IMG/VR virus record: IMGVR_UViG_3300045988_032692 | Reading direction: 5' to 3' (one strand) | DNA from: a virus | DNA length: 39,245 bases | Part shown: piece after piece, positions 1 through 39,245 of the stretch | How positions within the stretch are numbered: the first letter of the stretch is position 1 | Layout of the letters: each line of letters starts with the position of its first letter | The notes under the pieces: generated by a model | What the model saw: the letters and a program-made list of their open reading frames with translations, nothing else | Told to the model about the DNA's origin: nothing | Database searches by the model: none | Program-made: the position numbers and the translations under genes

Positions 1-54
1 AGGGAGTAGTCGTCTAAAAAGCGAGCGAGAGTTCGAATCTCTCCTTCCGCGCCA
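1..54 (+). tRNA. 3' portion of a tRNA gene (class II, most like tRNA-Ser); the 5' half lies outside the window
   Basis: T arm GAGAG-TTCGAAT-CTCTC (27..43), acceptor 3' strand CTTCCGC (44..50), discriminator G, encoded CCA (52..54). About 20 nt of variable-arm-like sequence (TCGT/GCGA stem) lies upstream. The layout resembles Bacillus tRNA-Ser 3' halves as I recall them. The anticodon is not in the window. Confidence 0.6.
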
Positions 55-55
55 A
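1..55 (+). repeat. att core, left copy (55-bp direct repeat identical to 39191..39245)
   Basis: AGGGAGTAGTCGTCTAAAAAGCGAGCGAGAGTTCGAATCTCTCCTTCCGCGCCAA occurs at 1..55 and 39191..39245 with 0 mismatches. The identity could extend beyond the window edges. Confidence 0.9.
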
Positions 56-2528: not shown

Positions 2529-2967
2529 TGTGGTGTTCCTCCTTCTTGTTCTCCGCGCCAGCCGCCGCCAGCGCGTTCACACGCGCTTCCATCGCTTCAA
2601 ACTCCCTTCGGGTGACAAATTCCCCGCTGGCCGGGATGATCGGCTGTGCGGGCGTCCTCGCGCCCGTGCGCTCCGTGTAATCCAGAACCCGCATGGACGG
2701 AACGCCGGATGCGTCCACGCTCTTGATATAAATGCACGGGTTCTCGCTATCCCACAGAGGAACCGTGTTCCCCGCCGCGACGAGGTAGCTCTTTGCGCCC
2801 GCGTCACCCTGTACCCAAATCATGCTCTGGGCAGGCTGCGGCATTTGCGCCATAGGCTGGGGCGGCTGCTGCGGTTGATACTGTTGGCGAAGCTGCATGA
2901 GCTGGTCTTGCATCGGCGGCTGATAAAATGGTTGGTAGCTCATCGGCGGTTGGTACTGTCCATACAT
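2509..2967 (-). CDS. Protein with Gln/Pro-rich N-terminal low-complexity region, small beta domain and helical tail (144-152 aa)
   Basis: ORF track. An alternative start at 2943 forms an ATGA overlap with the upstream stop. Core motif IWVQGDAGAKSYLVAAGNTVPLWDSENPCIYIKSVDASG. Confidence 0.65.
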   Translation of the reverse strand: MYGQYQPPMSYQPFYQPPMQDQLMQLRQQYQPQQPPQPMAQMPQPAQSMIWVQGDAGAKSYLVAAGNTVPLWDSENPCIYIKSVDASGVPSMRVLDYTERTGARTPAQPIIPASGEFVTRREFEAMEARVNALAAAGAENKKEEHHNAESTV

Positions 2968-3359
2968 TCAGATTCGTTCCTTTCCCAAAAATAAAGCGGT
3001 GTTTGGCTCCCAGAGTTCCATGTGTCAAACCAATCTCCATCCCTGACGCAGACCACATGGGTTGCAAGCGCAAGAATGTATGTACCGATTGGATGGTCAC
3101 GCGCGAACTCCGCAACTGTGTATGTGTCCGGGTTGGAGCTTGGTACGCCATGCCGGACATAGCCAAGCTGGTTCAGGTACGCTCCCCAAACAGCGTTTGC
3201 GGAGGGCATATCGCCAACCTCAAACCCATGAAGCGCAAGCGCAACATATACCTCATCCCACGATTTCCCGGTCGCCTTGCAGATCGCCCGAACAGGGCAA
3301 TCCCCAACCTGACGCCGCGCGGGATTTGGATTGTAAAAAGAAAAACCCATACCGGACAC
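2940..3359 (-). CDS. Putative papain-like (Cys-His-Asp) peptidase-fold protein, 139 aa
   Basis: N-terminal GDCPVRAI (candidate nucleophile Cys), C-terminal ATHVVCVRDGDWFDTWN (candidate His and Asp). No signal peptide. The fold call is inference. Confidence 0.45.
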   Translation of the reverse strand: MSGMGFSFYNPNPARRQVGDCPVRAICKATGKSWDEVYVALALHGFEVGDMPSANAVWGAYLNQLGYVRHGVPSSNPDTYTVAEFARDHPIGTYILALATHVVCVRDGDWFDTWNSGSQTPLYFWERNESECMDSTNRR

Positions 3360-3435: not shown

Positions 3436-3684
3436 TTAACTATATAGTCGGCTAGATGTCTTTCGCATTCGGTCGAGAATTCCGGGGAGCCGCCGCTGCA
3501 CGGTGGCTCGCCCGAGATACAACTCCGATGCAACATCAATCTGCGGGCGCTTATCGACGTAATAGAGCTTTGCAATTCGCTCATTTTCCTGCCCGAGGTT
3601 TGCTTGGGAAATAACGTTCTCCATTTCTCCACGCATCAGGCCGGATAATTCAGGCGGTAGATTATACCGCGCTTGTGGAGACAT
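3436..3684 (-). CDS. Small sigma-70 region-4-like / ArpU-RinA-like HTH protein (82 aa)
   Basis: ENERIAKLYYVDKRPQIDVASELYLGRATVQRRL fits the region-4 HTH pattern. The start is 4 nt after the endolysin stop. Confidence 0.55.
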   Translation of the reverse strand: MSPQARYNLPPELSGLMRGEMENVISQANLGQENERIAKLYYVDKRPQIDVASELYLGRATVQRRLPGILDRMRKTSSRLYS

Positions 3685-3688
3685 AGGA

Positions 3689-4369
3689 TCACCCCTTCTT
3701 GCTCAAAATGGGAATGTTTCCCTTGTTCGACACTTCGAGATCCAGCGCCTTTGCAATATCGCGAATTTTAATATAATTCGTGCCGTCCTTCAAAATGCGT
3801 TCGACCTCGATCTCCTTGCCGTCTATGATCATCTTCGATTTCGTGATCACCTCATCCACCTCCTCCAAGAGCTTCTTGAATGCTTCCCACTTCGTTTCGT
3901 CAATCAGCGGAAGCGGACACAGCTTCATCGAAATGTCATAGTGCCGGATTGCGGCCTGCACGTTCGGCAGCTGCTTCAGCAACATCTGATAGAGCCGCGC
4001 AGCGTTGCGCATCGTTGCCTCCGGGATGTAATACTTGCCGGAAGCGTCTGTGTGGCTCACCATCTCGATAGATACCGTGTTGTAGTTGTTGTACACCTTG
4101 CCGAATTTGCCGCTCCTGCCGTCGCCCACGGCCCACGCAACCGCATCCAGCGGCACACACTGGTAAACGGTATCGCCCTCGTCTACCACGAAATGTGCCG
4201 AAGCAGCGCGTCCCTCGCTGCCGTTGGCAAAGTATCGGGCATTGCCAAGCGCTGTTGCGTGCAGGCCGGTGTTCGCCGTGTAGTGAAACACGATTGCCTG
4301 GATAGCCGAGAGCGGACGCCGCCCGCCCACTCTCGTTGCCCGGATGGTATCGTTAATTTTCAGTGCCAT
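3689..4369 (-). CDS. Endolysin: N-acetylmuramoyl-L-alanine amidase (Amidase_2/PGRP) with C-terminal wall-binding-type domain
   Basis: Motifs IVFHYTAN, SAHFVVD, AWAVGDG, NTVSIEM. C-terminal IDGKEIEVERILKDGTNYIKIRDIAKAL resembles copper-amine-oxidase-N-like repeats. ATG at 4369 preferred over the GTG at 4378. Confidence 0.9.
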   Translation of the reverse strand: MALKINDTIRATRVGGRRPLSAIQAIVFHYTANTGLHATALGNARYFANGSEGRAASAHFVVDEGDTVYQCVPLDAVAWAVGDGRSGKFGKVYNNYNTVSIEMVSHTDASGKYYIPEATMRNAARLYQMLLKQLPNVQAAIRHYDISMKLCPLPLIDETKWEAFKKLLEEVDEVITKSKMIIDGKEIEVERILKDGTNYIKIRDIAKALDLEVSNKGNIPILSKKG

Positions 4370-4578: not shown

Positions 4579-4830
4579 TTATGTACTCCCTTCGTCGTCC
4601 GATTTTTTTGCAAATACTCTCTTCGCAAGGAGCATCAGCAGCTCCCCGCCAAACGCCGCTACGGCGAAGGTCAGGATGTCGGAAAGGTCTATGTCCCTGT
4701 CCATCACCAGTGCTGCGGTTTTGACCATCGCCGCCCAGAGCAGGACGCCAAACAGCACCCAGATGCAGAAATACACCAGCTGCCGTGCCATCTTCCCCTT
4801 CGTCAGGCGGCTTTTCCGGATGCGCCTCAT
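4579..4830 (-). CDS. Second holin-like membrane protein (83 aa, two TM)
   Basis: ATGA overlap with the XhlA-like stop. Basic N-terminus, two hydrophobic helices, acidic tail. Confidence 0.6.
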   Translation of the reverse strand: MRRIRKSRLTKGKMARQLVYFCIWVLFGVLLWAAMVKTAALVMDRDIDLSDILTFAVAAFGGELLMLLAKRVFAKKSDDEGST

Positions 4831-35906: not shown

Positions 35907-35994
35907 TGTATTGTGACTACATTATAGACCCTTATTTTTGTTTTGTCAATACATTTTTGCGCTTTTGAATAAATATTTTTGTATTGACAATACA
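35907..35994. promoter_or_regulatory. Three related operator sites of the genetic switch
   Basis: Perfect 7-1-7 palindrome TGTATTGACAATACA (35980..35994). Variants TGTTTTGTCAATACA (35939..35953) and TGTATTGTGACTACA (35907..35921). Each overlaps a -35 or -10 element. Confidence 0.6.
35921..35949 (-). promoter_or_regulatory. Early lytic (leftward) sigma-A-type promoter
   Basis: The minus strand reads TTGACA (35949..35944), a 17-nt spacer, then TATAAT (35926..35921). Confidence 0.7.
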
Positions 35995-36011
35995 TTTATA
36001 TTGTGTATAAT
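35984..36011 (+). promoter_or_regulatory. Repressor (rightward) promoter
   Basis: TTGACA (35984..35989), 16-nt spacer, TATAAT (36006..36011). RBS AGGAGGTG before the ATG at 36032. Confidence 0.7.
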
Positions 36012-36031: not shown

Positions 36032-36403
36032 ATGACCATCAATGAACGCATAAAAGCCATCCGAAAAAAAAACGGATTATCTCAGACTGATTTTGCAGAA
36101 CGGCTTGGAACAACGCGGGGTGTAATCACGAACCTTGAAGGTGCAAAAACAGAACCGAATGAGCCATTTTTACGGCTTATTTGCAAAGAGTTTAATGTCA
36201 ACGAAACATGGCTTCGCACCGGAGAGGGTGAAATGATGAAGGAGTTGACGCAAAATCAGGAAATCGCAGAGTTCCTCGGGAAAGTTATGAACGACCCGGA
36301 TGACGCAGCAAGGAAACGTTTTATATCAATCGTTAGCCAGCTCGGCGTTAAAGAATGGGAGATACTTGCCGAAATCGCCGAAAAATGGGCACAGGGGAAA
36401 TGA
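36032..36403 (+). CDS. cI-like XRE-family repressor without a peptidase S24 domain (123 aa)
   Basis: N-terminal HTH RIKAIRKKNGLSQTDFAERLGTTRGVITNLEGAKTEP. Helical C-terminus. Divergent from the early operon. Confidence 0.85.
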   Translation: MTINERIKAIRKKNGLSQTDFAERLGTTRGVITNLEGAKTEPNEPFLRLICKEFNVNETWLRTGEGEMMKELTQNQEIAEFLGKVMNDPDDAARKRFISIVSQLGVKEWEILAEIAEKWAQGK

Positions 36404-36414
36404 CCCCTGTGCCC
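36387..36414. terminator. Bidirectional terminator overlapping the repressor stop codon
   Basis: Perfect 11-bp stem GGGCACAGGGG / CCCCTGTGCCC. Loop AAATGA contains the TGA stop. A-run upstream and TTT downstream. Confidence 0.75.
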
Positions 36415-36428
36415 ATTTGCTATGTATG

Positions 36429-36539
36429 CTATTTGTTGACCATCGTTTTCAAAAACCGCCAGAGGAGGTCAAGCTCCTCATCCGTTGCGCGCTGCATCAG
36501 CCGCGCGATCTCCTGTTCCAGCCATGCTCTATCATTCAT
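36429..36539 (-). CDS. 36-aa helical micro-ORF convergent with the repressor gene
   Basis: Hand-translated MNDRAWLEQEIARLMQRATDEELDLLWRFLKTMVNK. RBS AAGGAGCAAAGGA. Has its own consensus promoter. Confidence 0.5.
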   Translation of the reverse strand: MNDRAWLEQEIARLMQRATDEELDLLWRFLKTMVNK

Positions 36540-36592
36540 TCCTTTGCTCCTTCTTCCTTCGTATCGGCTGATTCGTATGAGGCAATACCAGA

Positions 36593-36621
36593 ATTATAAA
36601 ACATTCGTTCTATAATTTCAA
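36593..36621 (-). promoter_or_regulatory. Near-consensus promoter for the 36-aa ORF
   Basis: The minus strand reads TTGAAA (36621..36616), a 17-nt spacer, then TATAAT (36598..36593). Confidence 0.65.
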
Positions 36622-36673
36622 GATGTATTTGTACTCTAAAATATTTGGAAGTATATTATTGTACTCTTCGCAG

Positions 36674-36702
36674 TTGCATTTTCTCGGAATTTGTTATATA
36701 TT
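36674..36702 (+). promoter_or_regulatory. Promoter for the zinc-ribbon membrane protein gene
   Basis: TTGCAT (36674..36679), 17-nt spacer, TATATT (36697..36702). Upstream direct repeat TTGTACTCT at 36629..36637 and 36659..36667. Confidence 0.6.
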
Positions 36703-36735
36703 GGACATACAGACATTATTTTAGGAGGGAACAAA

Positions 36736-37209
36736 ATGATTTGTCCTCAATGCGGCAGCGAAAATGTAACAATCACCATGCACCAGATCGGCAGTGAAAC
36801 AGAAAAGTATGGTGTCGGATTTGACGGGCACATGAACAACCTCGCGCGTGGGATCGTCGCGGTCTGCACACTTGGCCTGTCGAACCTGTTCTGGCGCAAG
36901 CGTACCGGCAGCGAGCGGGCGGTCACGCGCACAAAGAAAATCTGCCTTTGCCAAAACTGCGGCCATTCGTGGGAAATCCGGGAGAAAAGTGAAAGCACTC
37001 TCAGTGCGGAAGAAAAGCACAAAATCATCCGTAACGGTGTGATCTCGCTTGCTTTACTTATTGTCATTGCCGGTGTCGTTGTGCAATGGATCGTCGGTGC
37101 GACAAACCTTCGGATTCTCTATGTCGCTTATATTGCTGCTGTTGCCGCAGGCGCCATTCGCGTTTATCGCGCAATCTGTGCACTCAAAAATGATGGTTCA
37201 GGAGAATAG
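36736..37209 (+). CDS. Zinc-ribbon protein with C-terminal double TM anchor (157 aa); candidate superinfection-exclusion/abortive-infection factor
   Basis: CPQCG...CQNCG ribbon split by a hydrophobic insert. C-terminal TMs ISLALLIVIAGVVVQWIV and ILYVAYIAAVAAGAI. RBS AGGAGGG. Own promoter. Confidence 0.75.
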   Translation: MICPQCGSENVTITMHQIGSETEKYGVGFDGHMNNLARGIVAVCTLGLSNLFWRKRTGSERAVTRTKKICLCQNCGHSWEIREKSESTLSAEEKHKIIRNGVISLALLIVIAGVVVQWIVGATNLRILYVAYIAAVAAGAIRVYRAICALKNDGSGE

Positions 37210-37271
37210 ACTGTGCAGAAACAGTCGAATCATTTTGATTGCACTTTTGTCGAAAGGCTGTCATACTGAAA

Positions 37272-37445
37272 TCAGCTAAACATCGTCCGTTCTTTGTGGC
37301 CATCTCCGGTTTCAGAGAGGCAGCTAAACCAGAGTTTTCCTCCCTTTATGTATTCAAGGGAAAATGCCTCCACATTCCGAAACTGGCCGCCATCAACGAC
37401 GATGTTTACTTTTCCTTCCTCAAACCTGATATTGATGCTCTGCAT
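37272..37445 (-). CDS. 57-aa beta-rich ORF, divergent from the membrane-anchored HTH gene
   Basis: Last 57 codons of track ORF 37272..37664. Met at 37445 preceded by AAAGGAGGA. MQSINIRFEEGKVNIVVDGGQFRNVEAFSLEYIKGGKLWF... Confidence 0.55.
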   Translation of the reverse strand: MQSINIRFEEGKVNIVVDGGQFRNVEAFSLEYIKGGKLWFSCLSETGDGHKERTMFS

Positions 37446-37603
37446 GGGGAATCCTCCTTTGTGATTCGGCGTTTGCCGTGATTCGACCGTACCACCACAC
37501 AACGAGAAATACAACCTAAATATCTGCAAGCTGCGAAATCCGACAAATATCTCTGCAAACTTTTGAGAAAACGAATGAAAATGATTGAAAGAGAAGTGTA
37601 AGA

Positions 37604-38002
37604 ATGGATTTTGAGAAGCTAATTGACAGATGTATGCGCACGATTGATGACAGAAATCTAACAAATCGAGATGTTGCGCGGCTTGCAGATATTTCCGAAG
37701 CTACCGTGTCGAGGGTGCTGGCGACCAGAGGGAGAAATGCGTCAATGTCAACGATCATCGCCATTTGTGACGGATTGGGGATTGAGGAGGAAACCATCCA
37801 GTACGACATTTCACCAAATGATGTGACGTCGCTGGAACACGTTTACTTGGAACGCATCGCGGATTTGAAAATTGCAATCGAACAGAAAGATCGGTGGATA
37901 CGGCGGGTGTTCATAATCTGTCTGTCGCTGATTGTATTCATTGTCATCGTACTGGCCGTTGATTTGCTTATCCCGACGGTCGGATGGTTTCGGGGGTGGT
38001 AG
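37604..38002 (+). CDS. Membrane-anchored XRE-type HTH protein (132 aa)
   Basis: HTH LTNRDVARLADISEATVSRVL, coiled linker, C-terminal TM VFIICLSLIVFIVIVLAVDLLI. Upstream direct repeats AAATATCT(CT)GCAA at 37518..37529 and 37545..37558. Confidence 0.75.
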   Translation: MDFEKLIDRCMRTIDDRNLTNRDVARLADISEATVSRVLATRGRNASMSTIIAICDGLGIEEETIQYDISPNDVTSLEHVYLERIADLKIAIEQKDRWIRRVFIICLSLIVFIVIVLAVDLLIPTVGWFRGW

Positions 38003-39138
38003 TCATAGATTGTATGAAATGCAAAAAGGAGATACCAGAGGGCGCGTCCTATTGCCCGTGGTGCGGAAAGAAACAGGTGCAGGGGCACCGTGGGAAATCG
38101 CGTGGAAATGGGCAGGGGTACGCCTATCAGCGGGGAAAAACATGGACGGCCCGCTGGACAGTCGCCTGCTACCTTGATGAAAACGAAAAGATGCACCAGA
38201 AAGTAAAAACGAAGGGCGGCTTCGCATCCAAGCGTGCCGCCCTACAATACGCCGCAAATCCACCGGAGAAAGAAAAATGCTCTCCAACGGTGCGGGAATA
38301 TTACAAAACCTATCTGCGTGGGGATTATCAATCGCTGTCATCCAACCGCCAGATCGCCGCAGACGCAGCATTTGAACGGTTAAAAGAGATTGCCGACTGT
38401 GAGATCGACGCGCTAACTATTCGGCAGCTGCAGGACGTCGTAGACCGCAACGCGAGCACATACTATACACGACGTGATATGAAAACGGTGCTGTCACACT
38501 GCTACAACCTTGCAATCGCAGAAAAACAAACCACTGTGAACCTCTCAAAATATATCAAACTGCCAATGCTCGAGGAGAAAACACCGGAGCCGTTCACGGA
38601 CGATGAAGTTCTGAAGCTATGGAAAACATATCCGCAGGATCATTTTATTGGGTTCATCCTCACGATGATCTACACAGGCATGATGCCAGGAGAGCTTCAA
38701 AGTCTCAAAAAGGATATGATTGACTTCGAGAAAAATGAGATCGTCGGCGGCGGTATTAAAACGCAAAAGCGAAAAGATACGCCTATGGTATTCCCGGACT
38801 TCCTCGCGCCCGTCCTGAAGGAACTATGCGAGGAAAGCAACTCGCGCGTTGGGAAGGTTTGCTGCATCAACAAGGACACTTTCTATGCGCGGTACTATGA
38901 ATGTCTCGAGCTTGCGGGTGTCCGGCGGCTCACTCCGTATTCGTGCAGACACACCACCGCAACCGCACTGGCCTCGAAAAATATTGATCCATTCACTATC
39001 AAGGAGGTCATGCGGCACAGCAAAATCACCACGACGCAGAAGTATGTTCATCCAAATATGCGAGGCATGGTCGATGCGGTCAACCAAATTCCATCTTCTG
39101 ATGTTCAATCAGCGCCAGACCCGAAAGTAACTCCGTAA
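37984..39138 (+). CDS. int: Tyrosine recombinase/integrase with N-terminal zinc ribbon
   Basis: CKKEIPEGASYCPWCG ribbon. Catalytic-domain landmarks CRHTTAT, MRHSKITTTQKYVH (Tyr nucleophile). Alternative start at 38014. Ends 52 nt before the right att copy. Confidence 0.9.
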   Translation: MVSGVVVIDCMKCKKEIPEGASYCPWCGKKQVQGHRGKSRGNGQGYAYQRGKTWTARWTVACYLDENEKMHQKVKTKGGFASKRAALQYAANPPEKEKCSPTVREYYKTYLRGDYQSLSSNRQIAADAAFERLKEIADCEIDALTIRQLQDVVDRNASTYYTRRDMKTVLSHCYNLAIAEKQTTVNLSKYIKLPMLEEKTPEPFTDDEVLKLWKTYPQDHFIGFILTMIYTGMMPGELQSLKKDMIDFEKNEIVGGGIKTQKRKDTPMVFPDFLAPVLKELCEESNSRVGKVCCINKDTFYARYYECLELAGVRRLTPYSCRHTTATALASKNIDPFTIKEVMRHSKITTTQKYVHPNMRGMVDAVNQIPSSDVQSAPDPKVTP

Positions 39139-39190
39139 GTAACAAAATCGAAAATGTGTAGTATTTTCAAAGGTTCCAAATACCCTGCTA

Positions 39191-39245
39191 AGGGAGTAGT
39201 CGTCTAAAAAGCGAGCGAGAGTTCGAATCTCTCCTTCCGCGCCAA
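39191..39245 (+). repeat. att core, right copy (displaced tRNA 3' fragment)
   Basis: Identical to 1..55. The sequence upstream (39139..39190) contains no tRNA 5' half (no GCGGAAG acceptor strand), so this copy is the remnant. Confidence 0.9.

What the first reader, a model, noticed from the sequence alone, without database searches (positions are those of the whole stretch)
36429..38002. Four-gene accessory island in the repressor-integrase slot: two membrane proteins, each paired with a divergent micro-ORF
The interval between repressor and integrase is a known hotspot for superinfection-exclusion and defence genes (for example sie and ltp genes in lactococcal and streptococcal phages). Here it contains two divergent pairs. 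The first is a 36-aa ORF (-) with a zinc-ribbon double-TM protein (+). The second is a 57-aa ORF (-) with a membrane-anchored XRE HTH protein (+). The two intergenic regions carry their own consensus-like promoters, strong RBSs and direct-repeat operator candidates. The region is visibly more AT-rich than the phage backbone. None of the four proteins matches a named defence, toxin-antitoxin or exclusion family that I recognise. This makes it a plausible undescribed lysogen-expressed protection or sensing system.
Basis: partly seen in the sequence, partly recalled or inferred. Interest (0 to 1): 0.65.

Follow-up and report, generated by a model that had tools for sequence, protein, structure and literature searches.

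The report
Prophage lysogeny switch with swappable cargo
The four genes are real, but they are not one defence island: two are conserved parts of the lysogeny switch of a gut Oscillospiraceae prophage (a 36-residue protein behind a DNA-damage-controlled promoter, and a membrane-anchored DNA-binding protein tied to the integrase), one is an exchangeable cargo gene, and one is a lineage-specific orphan.

Summary
All four ORFs exist and are under purifying selection. The window is a complete 39.2-kb prophage flanked by 55-bp att repeats at a tRNA 3' end found in Oscillospiraceae. Comparison with about 100 related loci breaks up the "island".

- **36-aa ORF.** It accompanies this family's repressor C-terminal domain wherever that region is covered. 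Its near-consensus promoter carries a clostridial-type LexA box in the spacer. The repressor has no cleavage domain. Best reading: an SOS-induced small antirepressor (inferred).
- **HTH-TM protein.** It lies directly upstream of the recombinase in 70 of 71 loci, across six recombinase types. It has an invariant extracytoplasmic tail motif and a conserved direct-repeat leader. Best reading: a membrane-tethered regulator of the int operon; function unknown.
- **Zinc-ribbon/2-TM gene.** It is an ORF-precise replaceable cassette behind a shared promoter and RBS, so it is a moron. Exclusion is possible but untested.
- **57-aa gene.** It is an orphan of this phage group.

No component matches a known defence family. 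The two proposed "pairs" reassort independently. This is a new variant of known lysogeny logic, of moderate interest.

The parts
1..55 (+). attL copy of the 55-bp att core (3' end of a tRNA)
   Evidence: Identical 55-nt repeat at both ends of the window. The same tRNA 3' end occurs in 15 Oscillospiraceae/Clostridiales genome contigs.
35921..36011 (.). Back-to-back perfect promoters of the immunity switch: TTGACA-17-TATAAT on the - strand (cro side) and TTGACA-16-TATAAT on the + strand (repressor)
   Evidence: Both score 12/12.
36032..36403 (+). CI-like repressor, 123 aa: XRE HTH plus a family-specific helical C-terminal domain (RKRF[IV]S motif); no peptidase domain
   Evidence: HTH_19 4.8e-17. 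PDB sequence matches cover only the HTH, e.g. 434 repressor and SinR. The C-terminal domain is conserved across lineages.
36389..36416 (.). GC-rich hairpin between the convergent repressor and m36 genes; a T-run follows it on the - strand (terminator for m36)
   Evidence: Read from the sequence: GGGCACAGGGG-N6-CCCCTGTGCCC.
36429..36539 (-). m36: 36-aa helical micro-protein, candidate SOS-induced antirepressor
   Evidence: Homologue found in 49 of 53 loci. At least 124 database clusters. Codon-position bias between lineages. Its type tracks the repressor C-terminal domain type.
36593..36621 (-). m36 promoter TTGAAA-17-TATAAT
   Evidence: 11/12 match. A homologous promoter occurs in 37 IMG/VR contigs, and 35 of them have an m36-like ORF downstream.
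36599..36610 (-). LexA (Cheo) box GAACGAATGTTT inside the promoter spacer, within the 11-nt-arm palindrome 36592-36617
   Evidence: Clostridial LexA operators are GAACnnnnGTTT/C (PMC4234289). The half-sites are kept and N4 varies in the L005, L051 and further lineages.
36674..36735 (+). Cargo-slot expression signals: weak promoter (TTGCAT-17-TATATT, 8/12, my reading) and RBS AGGAGGG. Shared by phages that carry different cargo ORFs.
   Evidence: 96% identical up to W 36729 in L001, which has a different ORF. The 8/12 score is my reading of the sequence; the threshold scans do not list this site.
36736..37209 (+). ZnR-TM cargo gene: 4-Cys split zinc-ribbon module (residues 1-82) fused to a 2-TM hairpin (residues ~91-154)
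   Evidence: Replaced ORF-precisely in L001/L015.
37209..37226 (+). Weak terminator-like hairpin after the cargo gene
37272..37445 (-). m57: 57-aa soluble protein, orphan of this phage group, RBS AAGGAGGA
   Evidence: Two alleles differ at 33 nt, 24 of them at third positions, with 21 synonymous against 8 nonsynonymous codons. Only 8 clusters, 7 of them full-length at >=86% identity plus one partial match, in the protein database.
37480..37603 (+). Conserved leader of the HTH-TM/int operon, including the 27-nt direct repeat 37506-37532 / 37535-37561 (GAAAT...CTGCAA) and TGAAAG before the ATG; no SD
   Evidence: Conserved at nucleotide level across lineages whose proteins are about 50% identical. 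Repeat found. No RNA structure or Rfam family. Absent from the leaders of the second HTH variant.
37604..38002 (+). HTH-TM: tail-anchored XRE/LacI-type HTH protein with an invariant extracytoplasmic tail motif D-x3-P-x2-G-W-x-R
   Evidence: A recombinase gene follows within 250 nt in 70 of 71 loci.
38014..39138 (+). Tyrosine integrase with an N-terminal zinc ribbon. The likely start is ATG 38014; the longer ORF from 37984 overlaps the HTH-TM gene.
   Evidence: Phage_integrase 2.9e-17. In the 79% allele group the match begins at residue 10.
39133..39245 (+). tRNA-like sequence / attR copy of the 55-bp core (39191-39245)
   Evidence: Rfam tRNA 28.4 bits against a gathering score of 29; repeat found.

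Best explanation
The interval 36429-38002 is the integrase-proximal half of the lysogeny module of a complete Oscillospiraceae prophage. It consists of four independently inherited pieces.

(1) m36. In the lysogen, host LexA sits on the GAAC-N4-GTTT box inside the spacer of the m36 promoter. DNA damage removes LexA and the 36-aa helical protein is made. It then inactivates the 123-aa CI-like repressor, which has no autocleavage domain, through the repressor's C-terminal domain. That would make it an SOS-controlled small antirepressor. The promoter-plus-box architecture, the conserved co-occurrence and the type matching with the repressor C-terminal domain are shown. Binding and derepression are inferred.

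(2) HTH-TM. This is a tail-anchored XRE/LacI-type DNA-binding protein transcribed together with the integrase. It most likely binds the conserved direct repeats in its own leader and so sets expression of the int operon, with its invariant extracytoplasmic tail (or a fused outside domain in some relatives) as a possible input. The architecture and the strict linkage to recombinase genes are shown. The target and the signal are inferred.

(3) ZnR-TM. This is a moron in an exchange slot that has its own promoter, RBS and terminator. It is probably a lysogen-expressed membrane protein of unknown function, possibly superinfection exclusion (inferred).

(4) m57. This is a real, lineage-restricted 57-aa gene of unknown role.

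Sub-confidences: 'core genes plus cargo, not one system' about 0.85; m36 as antirepressor about 0.45; HTH-TM as autoregulating membrane-tethered regulator about 0.35; ZnR-TM as exclusion factor about 0.2.
For: Modularity:
- A phage 97-99% identical in the flanks replaces W 36730-37214 (the ZnR-TM ORF plus or minus 6 nt) with a DUF4236/TM gene.
- Cargo differs among lineages, while m36 and HTH-TM persist.
- m57 alleles, HTH-TM alleles and cargo types reassort.

m36:
- Found in 49 of 53 loci by HMM. Two of the four loci without it (L003, L029) are too short to tell. The other two (L004, L052) also lack the RKRF-type repressor C-terminal domain, although they keep HTH-TM.
- At least 124 clusters, 32-50 aa, in the protein database.
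- Coding signature between lineages.
- Promoter TTGAAA-17-TATAAT with GAACGAATGTTT in the spacer. This is the same motif as at C. difficile lexA and recA (PMC4234289).
- Homologous promoters in the L005 and L051 lineages have GAACGGATGTTC and GAACACATGTTC.
- 35 of 37 IMG/VR matches to the promoter-box pattern are followed by an m36-like ORF of diverged sequence.
- The repressor has only an HTH recognisable in Pfam and PDB.
- No ImmA, Ant or KilA domain in ten early genes tested.
- m36 type follows repressor C-terminal domain type and is independent of HTH-TM variant, including lineages where cargo separates m36 from the repressor.

HTH-TM:
- 35 homologue clusters plus a second variant with a different HTH but the same TM and tail motif.
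- A recombinase follows within 250 nt in 70 of 71 loci, across 3 tyrosine and 3 serine types.
- The leader is conserved at DNA level with a 27-nt direct repeat, and leader type co-varies with HTH variant.
- The model shows an HTH domain plus one long helix 71-122. PDB neighbours are XRE regulators.
Against: - There is no expression, binding or phenotype data.
- GAACN4GTTY is not enriched in the window as a whole (4 found, 2.8 expected). The case rests on its position and conservation.
- Only 3 of about 7 m36 lineages retrieved without using the box carry it.
- m36 shows no detectable similarity to any known antirepressor.
- A SinI/SinR-style mimicry of the repressor C-terminal domain is not supported (hhalign probability 1.9%, P 0.026).
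- Co-variation of m36 with the repressor C-terminal domain could reflect linkage, because the two genes are adjacent in most lineages. The Mantel correlations are confounded by phylogeny.
- No sigma-70-like promoter or SD is detectable for HTH-TM, so how the operon is expressed is unknown.
- Leader/HTH co-variation may also be simple linkage.
- Nothing indicates what ZnR-TM or m57 do.
Confidence: 0.5

Rival explanations
1. One reading: a four-gene, lysogen-expressed protection or sensing system made of two membrane-protein/micro-ORF pairs.
For: Position in the repressor-integrase slot. Two membrane proteins. Divergent arrangement. No match to known families, so a new system is not excluded. 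The slot does hold diverse cargo in relatives.
Against: The components do not co-occur as a set. m36 and HTH-TM are universal, whereas ZnR-TM is replaced ORF-precisely and m57 is confined to one group. m36 lies next to quite different genes in other lineages and tracks the repressor. m57 and HTH-TM alleles reassort. The LexA-box promoter implies that m36 is off in the uninduced lysogen.
Confidence: 0.07
2. TF-smORF induction module. The membrane-tethered HTH protein is a sensor transcription factor that activates the divergently transcribed small gene (m57 here, m36 in lineages where m36 abuts it). The small protein then inactivates the repressor. This would give a second, non-SOS route to induction, triggered at the membrane.
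For: Same layout as the experimentally shown XRE-TF/smORF modules of Vibrio and Aeromonas phages, in which smORFs without homologues inactivate cI non-proteolytically (PMC10432266). m36 is divergent from HTH-TM in the L002, L005, L027 and L053-58 lineages, and several of these lack the LexA box. Direct repeats lie between HTH-TM and the divergent small gene. The invariant outside tail, and its fusion to an extracytoplasmic Cys-rich domain in P0033/34, suggest an input.
Against: The m36-proximal upstream sequence is the same with both HTH variants, so it does not co-vary with the TF. In the window m36 is not adjacent to HTH-TM. m57 has no homologue outside one group and no detectable promoter. 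There are no functional data.
Confidence: 0.2
3. HTH-TM is an exclusion or immunity factor against related heteroimmune phages: a DNA-binding domain held at the membrane that captures a conserved site on incoming DNA. ZnR-TM is a second, exchangeable exclusion protein.
For: The recognition helix is invariant, and a matching conserved repeat region is present in all variant-1 phages even though their repressor HTH and operators differ. Location is in the classical sie slot. Both are membrane proteins.
Against: Exclusion genes are usually variable morons, whereas HTH-TM is a universal core gene tightly coupled to the recombinase gene. It has no strong promoter or RBS for lysogen expression. No similarity to Sie, Ltp or PADLOC models.
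Confidence: 0.12
4. The LexA-controlled promoter acts through an antisense or convergent transcript against the repressor mRNA, and the 36-aa peptide is incidental.
For: m36 is convergent with the repressor gene and only 25 nt away.
Against: A hairpin with a T-run on the - strand separates them. The peptide is conserved with excess third-position change and a fixed stop position across lineages. In several lineages cargo genes lie between m36 and the repressor.
Confidence: 0.06

Closest known systems
LexA-controlled small antirepressors of phages with non-cleavable repressors (coliphage 186 Tum; Gifsy-phage antirepressors, Lemire et al. 2011, PMC3121763)
   Same: A small protein gene whose promoter carries the host LexA operator, in a phage whose repressor lacks an autocleavage domain. 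The antirepressor matches the repressor type.
   Different: No sequence similarity. m36 is much smaller (32-40 aa core). The host is Gram-positive and the operator is a Cheo-type box. The gene sits convergent to, and immediately after, the repressor gene. Some lineages lack the box. Function is untested.
TF-smORF prophage induction modules (Silpe et al. 2023, Nature, PMC10432266)
   Same: An XRE-family regulator divergently transcribed from an unannotated small ORF without homologues. There the smORFs inactivate cI without proteolysis.
   Different: Those modules are SOS-independent and their TFs are soluble. Here the TF is tail-anchored in the membrane and co-transcribed with the integrase, and the conserved small gene carries a LexA box in this phage.
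Superinfection-exclusion genes in the int-repressor slot of Gram-positive phages (Sie2009 of lactococcal P335 phages, Ltp of TP-J34; from my own knowledge) and PdpSau of S. aureus prophages (PMC10127798, seen)
   Same: Small membrane-associated proteins encoded in the lysogeny module. The genes are exchangeable and have their own expression signals. This applies to ZnR-TM.
   Different: No sequence or fold similarity. ZnR-TM has a cytoplasmic 4-Cys ribbon plus a 2-TM hairpin. No phenotype is known.
Membrane-bound one-component regulators with an N-terminal DNA-binding domain (BcrR of Enterococcus: XRE HTH + 4 TM; ToxR/CadC; and RodZ for topology; from my own knowledge)
   Same: Cytoplasmic N-terminal HTH, a basic juxtamembrane helix, and a TM segment with the C-terminus outside.
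   Different: HTH-TM has one TM and only about 12 outside residues (invariant D-x3-P-x2-GW-x-R). It is phage-encoded and fixed upstream of recombinase genes.
LITAF-like zinc ribbon (Pfam PF10601)
   Same: CxxC ... hydrophobic insert ... CxxC architecture. Distant members of the ZnR family have a full insert of about 22 hydrophobic residues.
   Different: The Pfam match is insignificant (E 0.45). In the window's protein the insert is only semi-hydrophobic and is modelled as a helical hairpin.

Membership tests
LexA-controlled small antirepressor (Tum/Gifsy type) | Host LexA operator overlapping the gene's promoter | tested here: met
   GAACGAATGTTT lies in the spacer of TTGAAA-17-TATAAT and matches clostridial GAACnnnnGTTT/C. 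It is conserved in further lineages. This is sequence-level evidence only; LexA binding was not tested.
LexA-controlled small antirepressor (Tum/Gifsy type) | Cognate repressor lacks a RecA-stimulated autocleavage (S24) domain | tested here: met
   The 123-aa repressor has only HTH matches in Pfam and PDB.
LexA-controlled small antirepressor (Tum/Gifsy type) | The protein binds and inactivates the repressor | not testable with these tools
   Indirect evidence only: m36 type tracks the repressor C-terminal domain type. The hhalign test for mimicry is inconclusive (P 0.026).
LexA-controlled small antirepressor (Tum/Gifsy type) | Sequence homology to a described antirepressor family | tested here: not met
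   No Pfam, PHROG, PADLOC or NCBIfam hit.
TF-smORF induction module (Silpe 2023) | XRE-type TF divergently transcribed from a small ORF | tested here: met
   HTH-TM/m57 in the window. HTH-TM/m36 in L002, L005, L027 and L053-58.
TF-smORF induction module (Silpe 2023) | The TF activates the smORF promoter, and the smORF inactivates cI | not testable with these tools
   No expression or binding data.
TF-smORF induction module (Silpe 2023) | SOS independence | tested here: not met
   The window's m36 promoter carries a LexA box. This is undetermined for m57.
Known anti-phage defence systems (PADLOC-DB 2.0) | A component matches a defence-system model | tested here: not met
   Only generic HTH hits; nothing for m36, ZnR-TM or m57.
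Type II toxin-antitoxin pair (XRE antitoxin + small toxin) | Co-directional two-gene operon whose partners co-occur | tested here: not met
   Genes are divergent. m57 is absent from most HTH-TM loci, and alleles reassort.
Superinfection exclusion proteins of the int-repressor slot (Sie2009/Ltp) | Membrane or lipoprotein gene between repressor and integrase | tested here: met
   ZnR-TM, with a hydrophobic block at 96-143 modelled as two TM helices, lies between the repressor and the integrase.
Superinfection exclusion proteins of the int-repressor slot (Sie2009/Ltp) | Homology to a described Sie/Ltp family, or a block of DNA entry | tested here: not met
   No functionally annotated PHROG hit at E <= 0.001 (best hit 0.0012, to a family of unknown function). 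No PDB or BFVD fold match at E <= 0.001. The phenotype cannot be tested here.
LITAF-like zinc ribbon (PF10601) | Pfam model match above the gathering threshold | tested here: not met
   E 0.45, 11.1 bits against a cutoff of 23.8. Only the architecture resembles it.
Membrane-bound one-component transcription regulators | N-terminal DNA-binding domain + TM segment, N-terminus inside | tested here: met
   HTH_26/31/LacI hits. Hydrophobic block at 96-131, peak around 105. Basic residues precede the TM. Model shows the HTH plus a helix 71-122.
Membrane-bound one-component transcription regulators | Binds DNA while membrane-bound and responds to a signal | not testable with these tools
   Only a conserved repeat-bearing leader and an invariant outside motif.

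The most novel reading that the evidence does not exclude
The tail-anchored HTH protein, with its invariant extracytoplasmic D-x3-P-x2-GW-x-R motif, defines an undescribed class of membrane-tethered lysogeny regulators in gut Clostridia phages. It would couple a membrane or envelope cue to integrase expression and, through the neighbouring micro-proteins (m36, m57), to repressor inactivation. That would be a second, non-SOS induction input alongside the LexA-m36 route.
Probability: 0.2. Interest if true: 0.7.

Novelty: new variant of a known kind. Interest (0 to 1): 0.45.

Why it matters
Temperate phages of Oscillospiraceae and related gut Clostridia are abundant, but their lysis-lysogeny control is essentially unstudied.

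- If m36 is an SOS-controlled antirepressor, it would be one of the smallest known. It would define a family of at least 124 clusters that genome annotation leaves unnamed, and it would explain how these phages, whose repressors cannot self-cleave, sense DNA damage.
- The membrane-anchored HTH protein is fixed upstream of whatever recombinase the phage carries. It is a conserved unknown that could link envelope state to integration or induction.
- The ORF-precise cargo slot gives a defined place to look for lysogenic-conversion or exclusion genes in these phages.

None of this changes general principles. It extends known lysogeny logic to a new host group with new parts.

Tried and rejected
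- **RNA element in the HTH-TM leader.** No Rfam family, and the consensus fold is only -2.2 kcal/mol with no covariation. Rejected.
- **m36 as a SinI-like mimic of the repressor C-terminal domain.** hhalign aligns the expected segments, but at probability 1.9% and P 0.026. Not supported.
- **ToxN-like toxin in the L021 cargo.** This was my guess from memory. There was no Pfam hit at E <= 0.01. Dropped.
- **Truncated 85-aa forms of HTH-TM in databases.** The full ORF is intact in all eight loci checked, so these are start-codon miscalls.
- **Enrichment of LexA boxes across the window.** Not enriched: 4 found against 2.8 expected.
- **HTH-TM relatives in 185,579 species-representative genomes.** None found. 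The host was inferred from the att tRNA instead.
- **Fold searches.** ZnR-TM gave nothing at E <= 0.001 in PDB or BFVD. HTH-TM gave only generic XRE domains.
- **Literature searches for a membrane-anchored XRE next to an integrase.** Nothing specific found.
- **m36 as a direct query.** It could not be searched as a single protein (too short). A family profile was used instead.
Full report
**1. Observation**

The four ORFs are present as described.
- m36 lies at 36429..36539(-), with RBS GGAGCAAAGGA.
- The zinc-ribbon/TM gene has its real ATG at 36736 (to 37209, 157 aa), behind TTTTAGGAGGG.
- m57 lies at 37272..37445(-), behind AAGGAGGA.
- The HTH-TM gene lies at 37604..38002(+). It is followed by a tyrosine integrase (38014 or 37984..39138).

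Domain content is as stated.
- Pfam sees an XRE/LacI-type HTH in the 132-aa protein, only weak zinc-ribbon hits in the 157-aa protein, and nothing in the micro-ORFs.
- PHROGs, PADLOC and NCBIfam add no functional assignment.
- Hydropathy gives one hydrophobic block at residues 96-143 in the zinc-ribbon protein and one block at 96-131 (peak around 105) in the HTH protein. The structure models resolve these as two TM helices and as the end of one long helix.

All four are genuine coding genes. Allele comparisons show excess third-position change: m57 [6,3,24] with 21 synonymous against 8 nonsynonymous codons, ZnR-TM [0,2,9], HTH-TM [3,3,11], and m36 between lineages, for example [9,6,18] and [3,1,10].

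Some details of the observation do not hold.
- The region's GC is low (0.462 against 0.523, lowest 3.4% of windows). This comes from the intergenic DNA; the m36 and ZnR-TM ORFs are at backbone GC.
- A consensus-like promoter exists only in the first intergenic region. The second has nothing above 8/12.
- The HTH-TM gene has no Shine-Dalgarno sequence.

**2. Context**

- The window starts and ends with the same 55 nt, which are the 3' end of a tRNA. It is therefore a complete prophage.
- That tRNA end occurs in 15 genome contigs, all Oscillospiraceae/Clostridiales, including Firmicutes bacterium CAG:170.
- Left of the finding lie two perfect back-to-back promoters (35921-36011) and a 123-aa CI-like repressor. 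Its only recognisable domain is the HTH.
- Ten early genes tested encode recombination and replication functions. None has an ImmA, Ant or KilA domain.

**3. The "island" is not a unit**

- A faecal phage (MT835551) is 99.7% identical over 37215-39245 and 90% identical over 36179-36729. It replaces W 36730-37214, which is the ZnR-TM ORF plus or minus 6 nt, with a 247-aa DUF4236 protein. That protein shares only the 2-TM hairpin. The promoter and RBS upstream are shared.
- I compared about 100 related loci from IMG/VR, metagenomes and assemblies. The order is always repressor, variable cargo, HTH-TM, recombinase, with an m36 homologue on the opposite strand. The m36 homologue lies either just after the repressor or just before HTH-TM.
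- Cargo includes a BRCT protein (weak PADLOC candidate PDC-S48), lipoproteins with an Ada-Zn-like domain, a TM2-domain protein and a 439-aa membrane protein.
- m57 occurs only in the window's own group. Apart from one partial match, its only database relatives are at least 86% identical.
- m57's two alleles combine freely with both HTH-TM alleles and both cargo types.

**4. m36**

- A family HMM finds m36 in 49 of 53 loci. Two of the four loci without it (L003, L029) are too short to tell. The other two (L004, L052) also lack the RKRF-type repressor C-terminal domain, although they keep HTH-TM.
- A profile search returns at least 124 unannotated clusters of 32-50 aa.
- In the window its promoter is TTGAAA-17-TATAAT, with GAACGAATGTTT in the spacer, inside an 11-nt-arm palindrome.
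- Clostridial LexA operators are GAACnnnnGTTT/GTTC. C. difficile lexA and recA use GAAC....GTTT (PMC4234289).
- The motif is not enriched in the window overall (4 against 2.8 expected), so the argument rests on position and conservation.
  - Homologous promoters in the L005 and L051 lineages carry GAACGGATGTTC and GAACACATGTTC.
  - 35 of 37 IMG/VR matches to the promoter-box pattern precede m36-like ORFs that have diverged to roughly half identity.
  - Other lineages lack the box.
- m36 sequence type follows the repressor C-terminal domain type and is independent of HTH-TM variant. This holds even in lineages where cargo separates m36 from the repressor.
- These observations, together with a repressor that cannot self-cleave, make an SOS-induced antirepressor the best reading. 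Binding is inferred.
- A SinI/SinR-like mimicry is not supported statistically.

**5. HTH-TM**

- There are 35 homologue clusters. They share invariant T20, A25, T34, S36 and R37 in the HTH, and D120, P124, G127, W128 and R130 just outside the membrane.
- A second variant has a different HTH but the same TM and tail motif.
- Two clusters fuse an Ada-Zn-like domain after the tail.
- The AlphaFold model (pLDDT 78) shows a four-helix HTH domain, a disordered linker and one helix spanning residues 71-122. Structural neighbours are XRE regulators, all at E >= 0.01.
- A recombinase gene starts within 250 nt downstream in 70 of 71 loci. These cover three tyrosine and three serine types. The link is therefore to the recombinase position, not to one enzyme.
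- The 140 nt upstream are conserved at DNA level between phages whose proteins are about 50% identical. They contain a 27-nt direct repeat, form no conserved RNA structure, and differ completely in phages with the second HTH variant.
- I read this protein as a membrane-tethered regulator acting on its own leader. This is inference.

**6. ZnR-TM**

- Residues 1-82 form an autonomous 4-Cys module. It is found alone (about 80 aa) or fused to many other domains, in 106 representative clusters.
- It is modelled with high confidence as a ribbon with a helical insert.
- It has no structural match at E <= 0.001 in PDB or BFVD.
- Its function is unknown. Its position and membrane nature make exclusion possible but untested.

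**7. Comparison and verdict**

The closest known logics are two.
- LexA-controlled small antirepressors (186 Tum, Gifsy phages; PMC3121763).
- XRE-TF/smORF induction modules (PMC10432266).

Membership by homology fails for both, and the resemblance is architectural. Literature searches found no description of a membrane-anchored XRE next to integrases.

The finding is a real and tidy piece of phage regulatory anatomy with two uncharacterised conserved parts. It is not a new defence system.

Noticed in passing
window 1-55 and 39191-39245: Identical 55-bp direct repeats (the 3' end of a tRNA) bound the window, so it is a complete integrated prophage. The same tRNA end occurs only in Oscillospiraceae/Clostridiales assemblies, including Firmicutes bacterium CAG:170.
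   Followed up: yes
window 35921-36011: Two perfect 12/12 sigma-70 promoters face away from each other, 35 nt apart (their -35 hexamers are at 35944-35949 and 35984-35989), between the cro-side genes and the repressor. In the close relative MT835551 this segment and the repressor's HTH are replaced (a different immunity), while the repressor C-terminal domain and m36 stay about 90% identical.
   Followed up: partly
window 38014-38110 (integrase residues ~1-30): The tyrosine integrase carries an N-terminal CxxC...CxxC zinc ribbon (DZR / Zn_Ribbon_1 hits), which is unusual for phage integrases.
   Followed up: no
L002 2893-2960, L019 ~2334-2420, L027, L051, L053-57 (upstream of m36 homologues): A nucleotide block, ACAAAAAATGAA..TTTTTGTGGAGAAATGGAG, is conserved in the m36 5' region across lineages. 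In some it is in frame as an N-terminal extension (50-aa forms). In L019 an extra A in the A-run puts the upstream ATG out of frame. It could be a leader element or a slippery A-run.
   Followed up: partly
L002 ~2960-3000, L005 ~4600-4640, L019/L021 ~3850-3890, L053-58: A conserved GC hairpin, GCCCGCGCCG-N12-CGGCGCGGGC, followed by a T-run on the HTH-TM strand, precedes the HTH-TM leader in all lineages except the window's group. In the window's group m57 occupies that place.
   Followed up: partly
P0033, P0034; L052 4450-5133: Some HTH-TM homologues continue after the GWFR tail into an extracytoplasmic Ada_Zn_binding-like Cys domain. The same domain type is found at the C-terminus of separate lipoprotein cargo genes in L002, L004 and L005. 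This may be a functional link between cargo and HTH-TM.
   Followed up: no
L030-L036 (gene calls 3454..3711): Public gene calls give HTH-TM as an 85-aa protein starting at Met48. The full 132-aa ORF is intact. The miscall probably arises because the true start has no SD while an internal GGGAG precedes Met48.
   Followed up: yes
L054 3600-7099: One host contig has int, HTH-TM and m36 followed not by cargo and repressor but by another element (large serine recombinase, TnpW, HTH_16, sigma-70 r4 genes). The prophage is interrupted or decayed at the cargo slot.
   Followed up: no
L021 2109-2588: An extra 160-aa cargo gene lies between the repressor and m36. It has no Pfam hit at E <= 0.01. I had guessed a ToxN-like toxin from memory and this was not confirmed.
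   Followed up: partly
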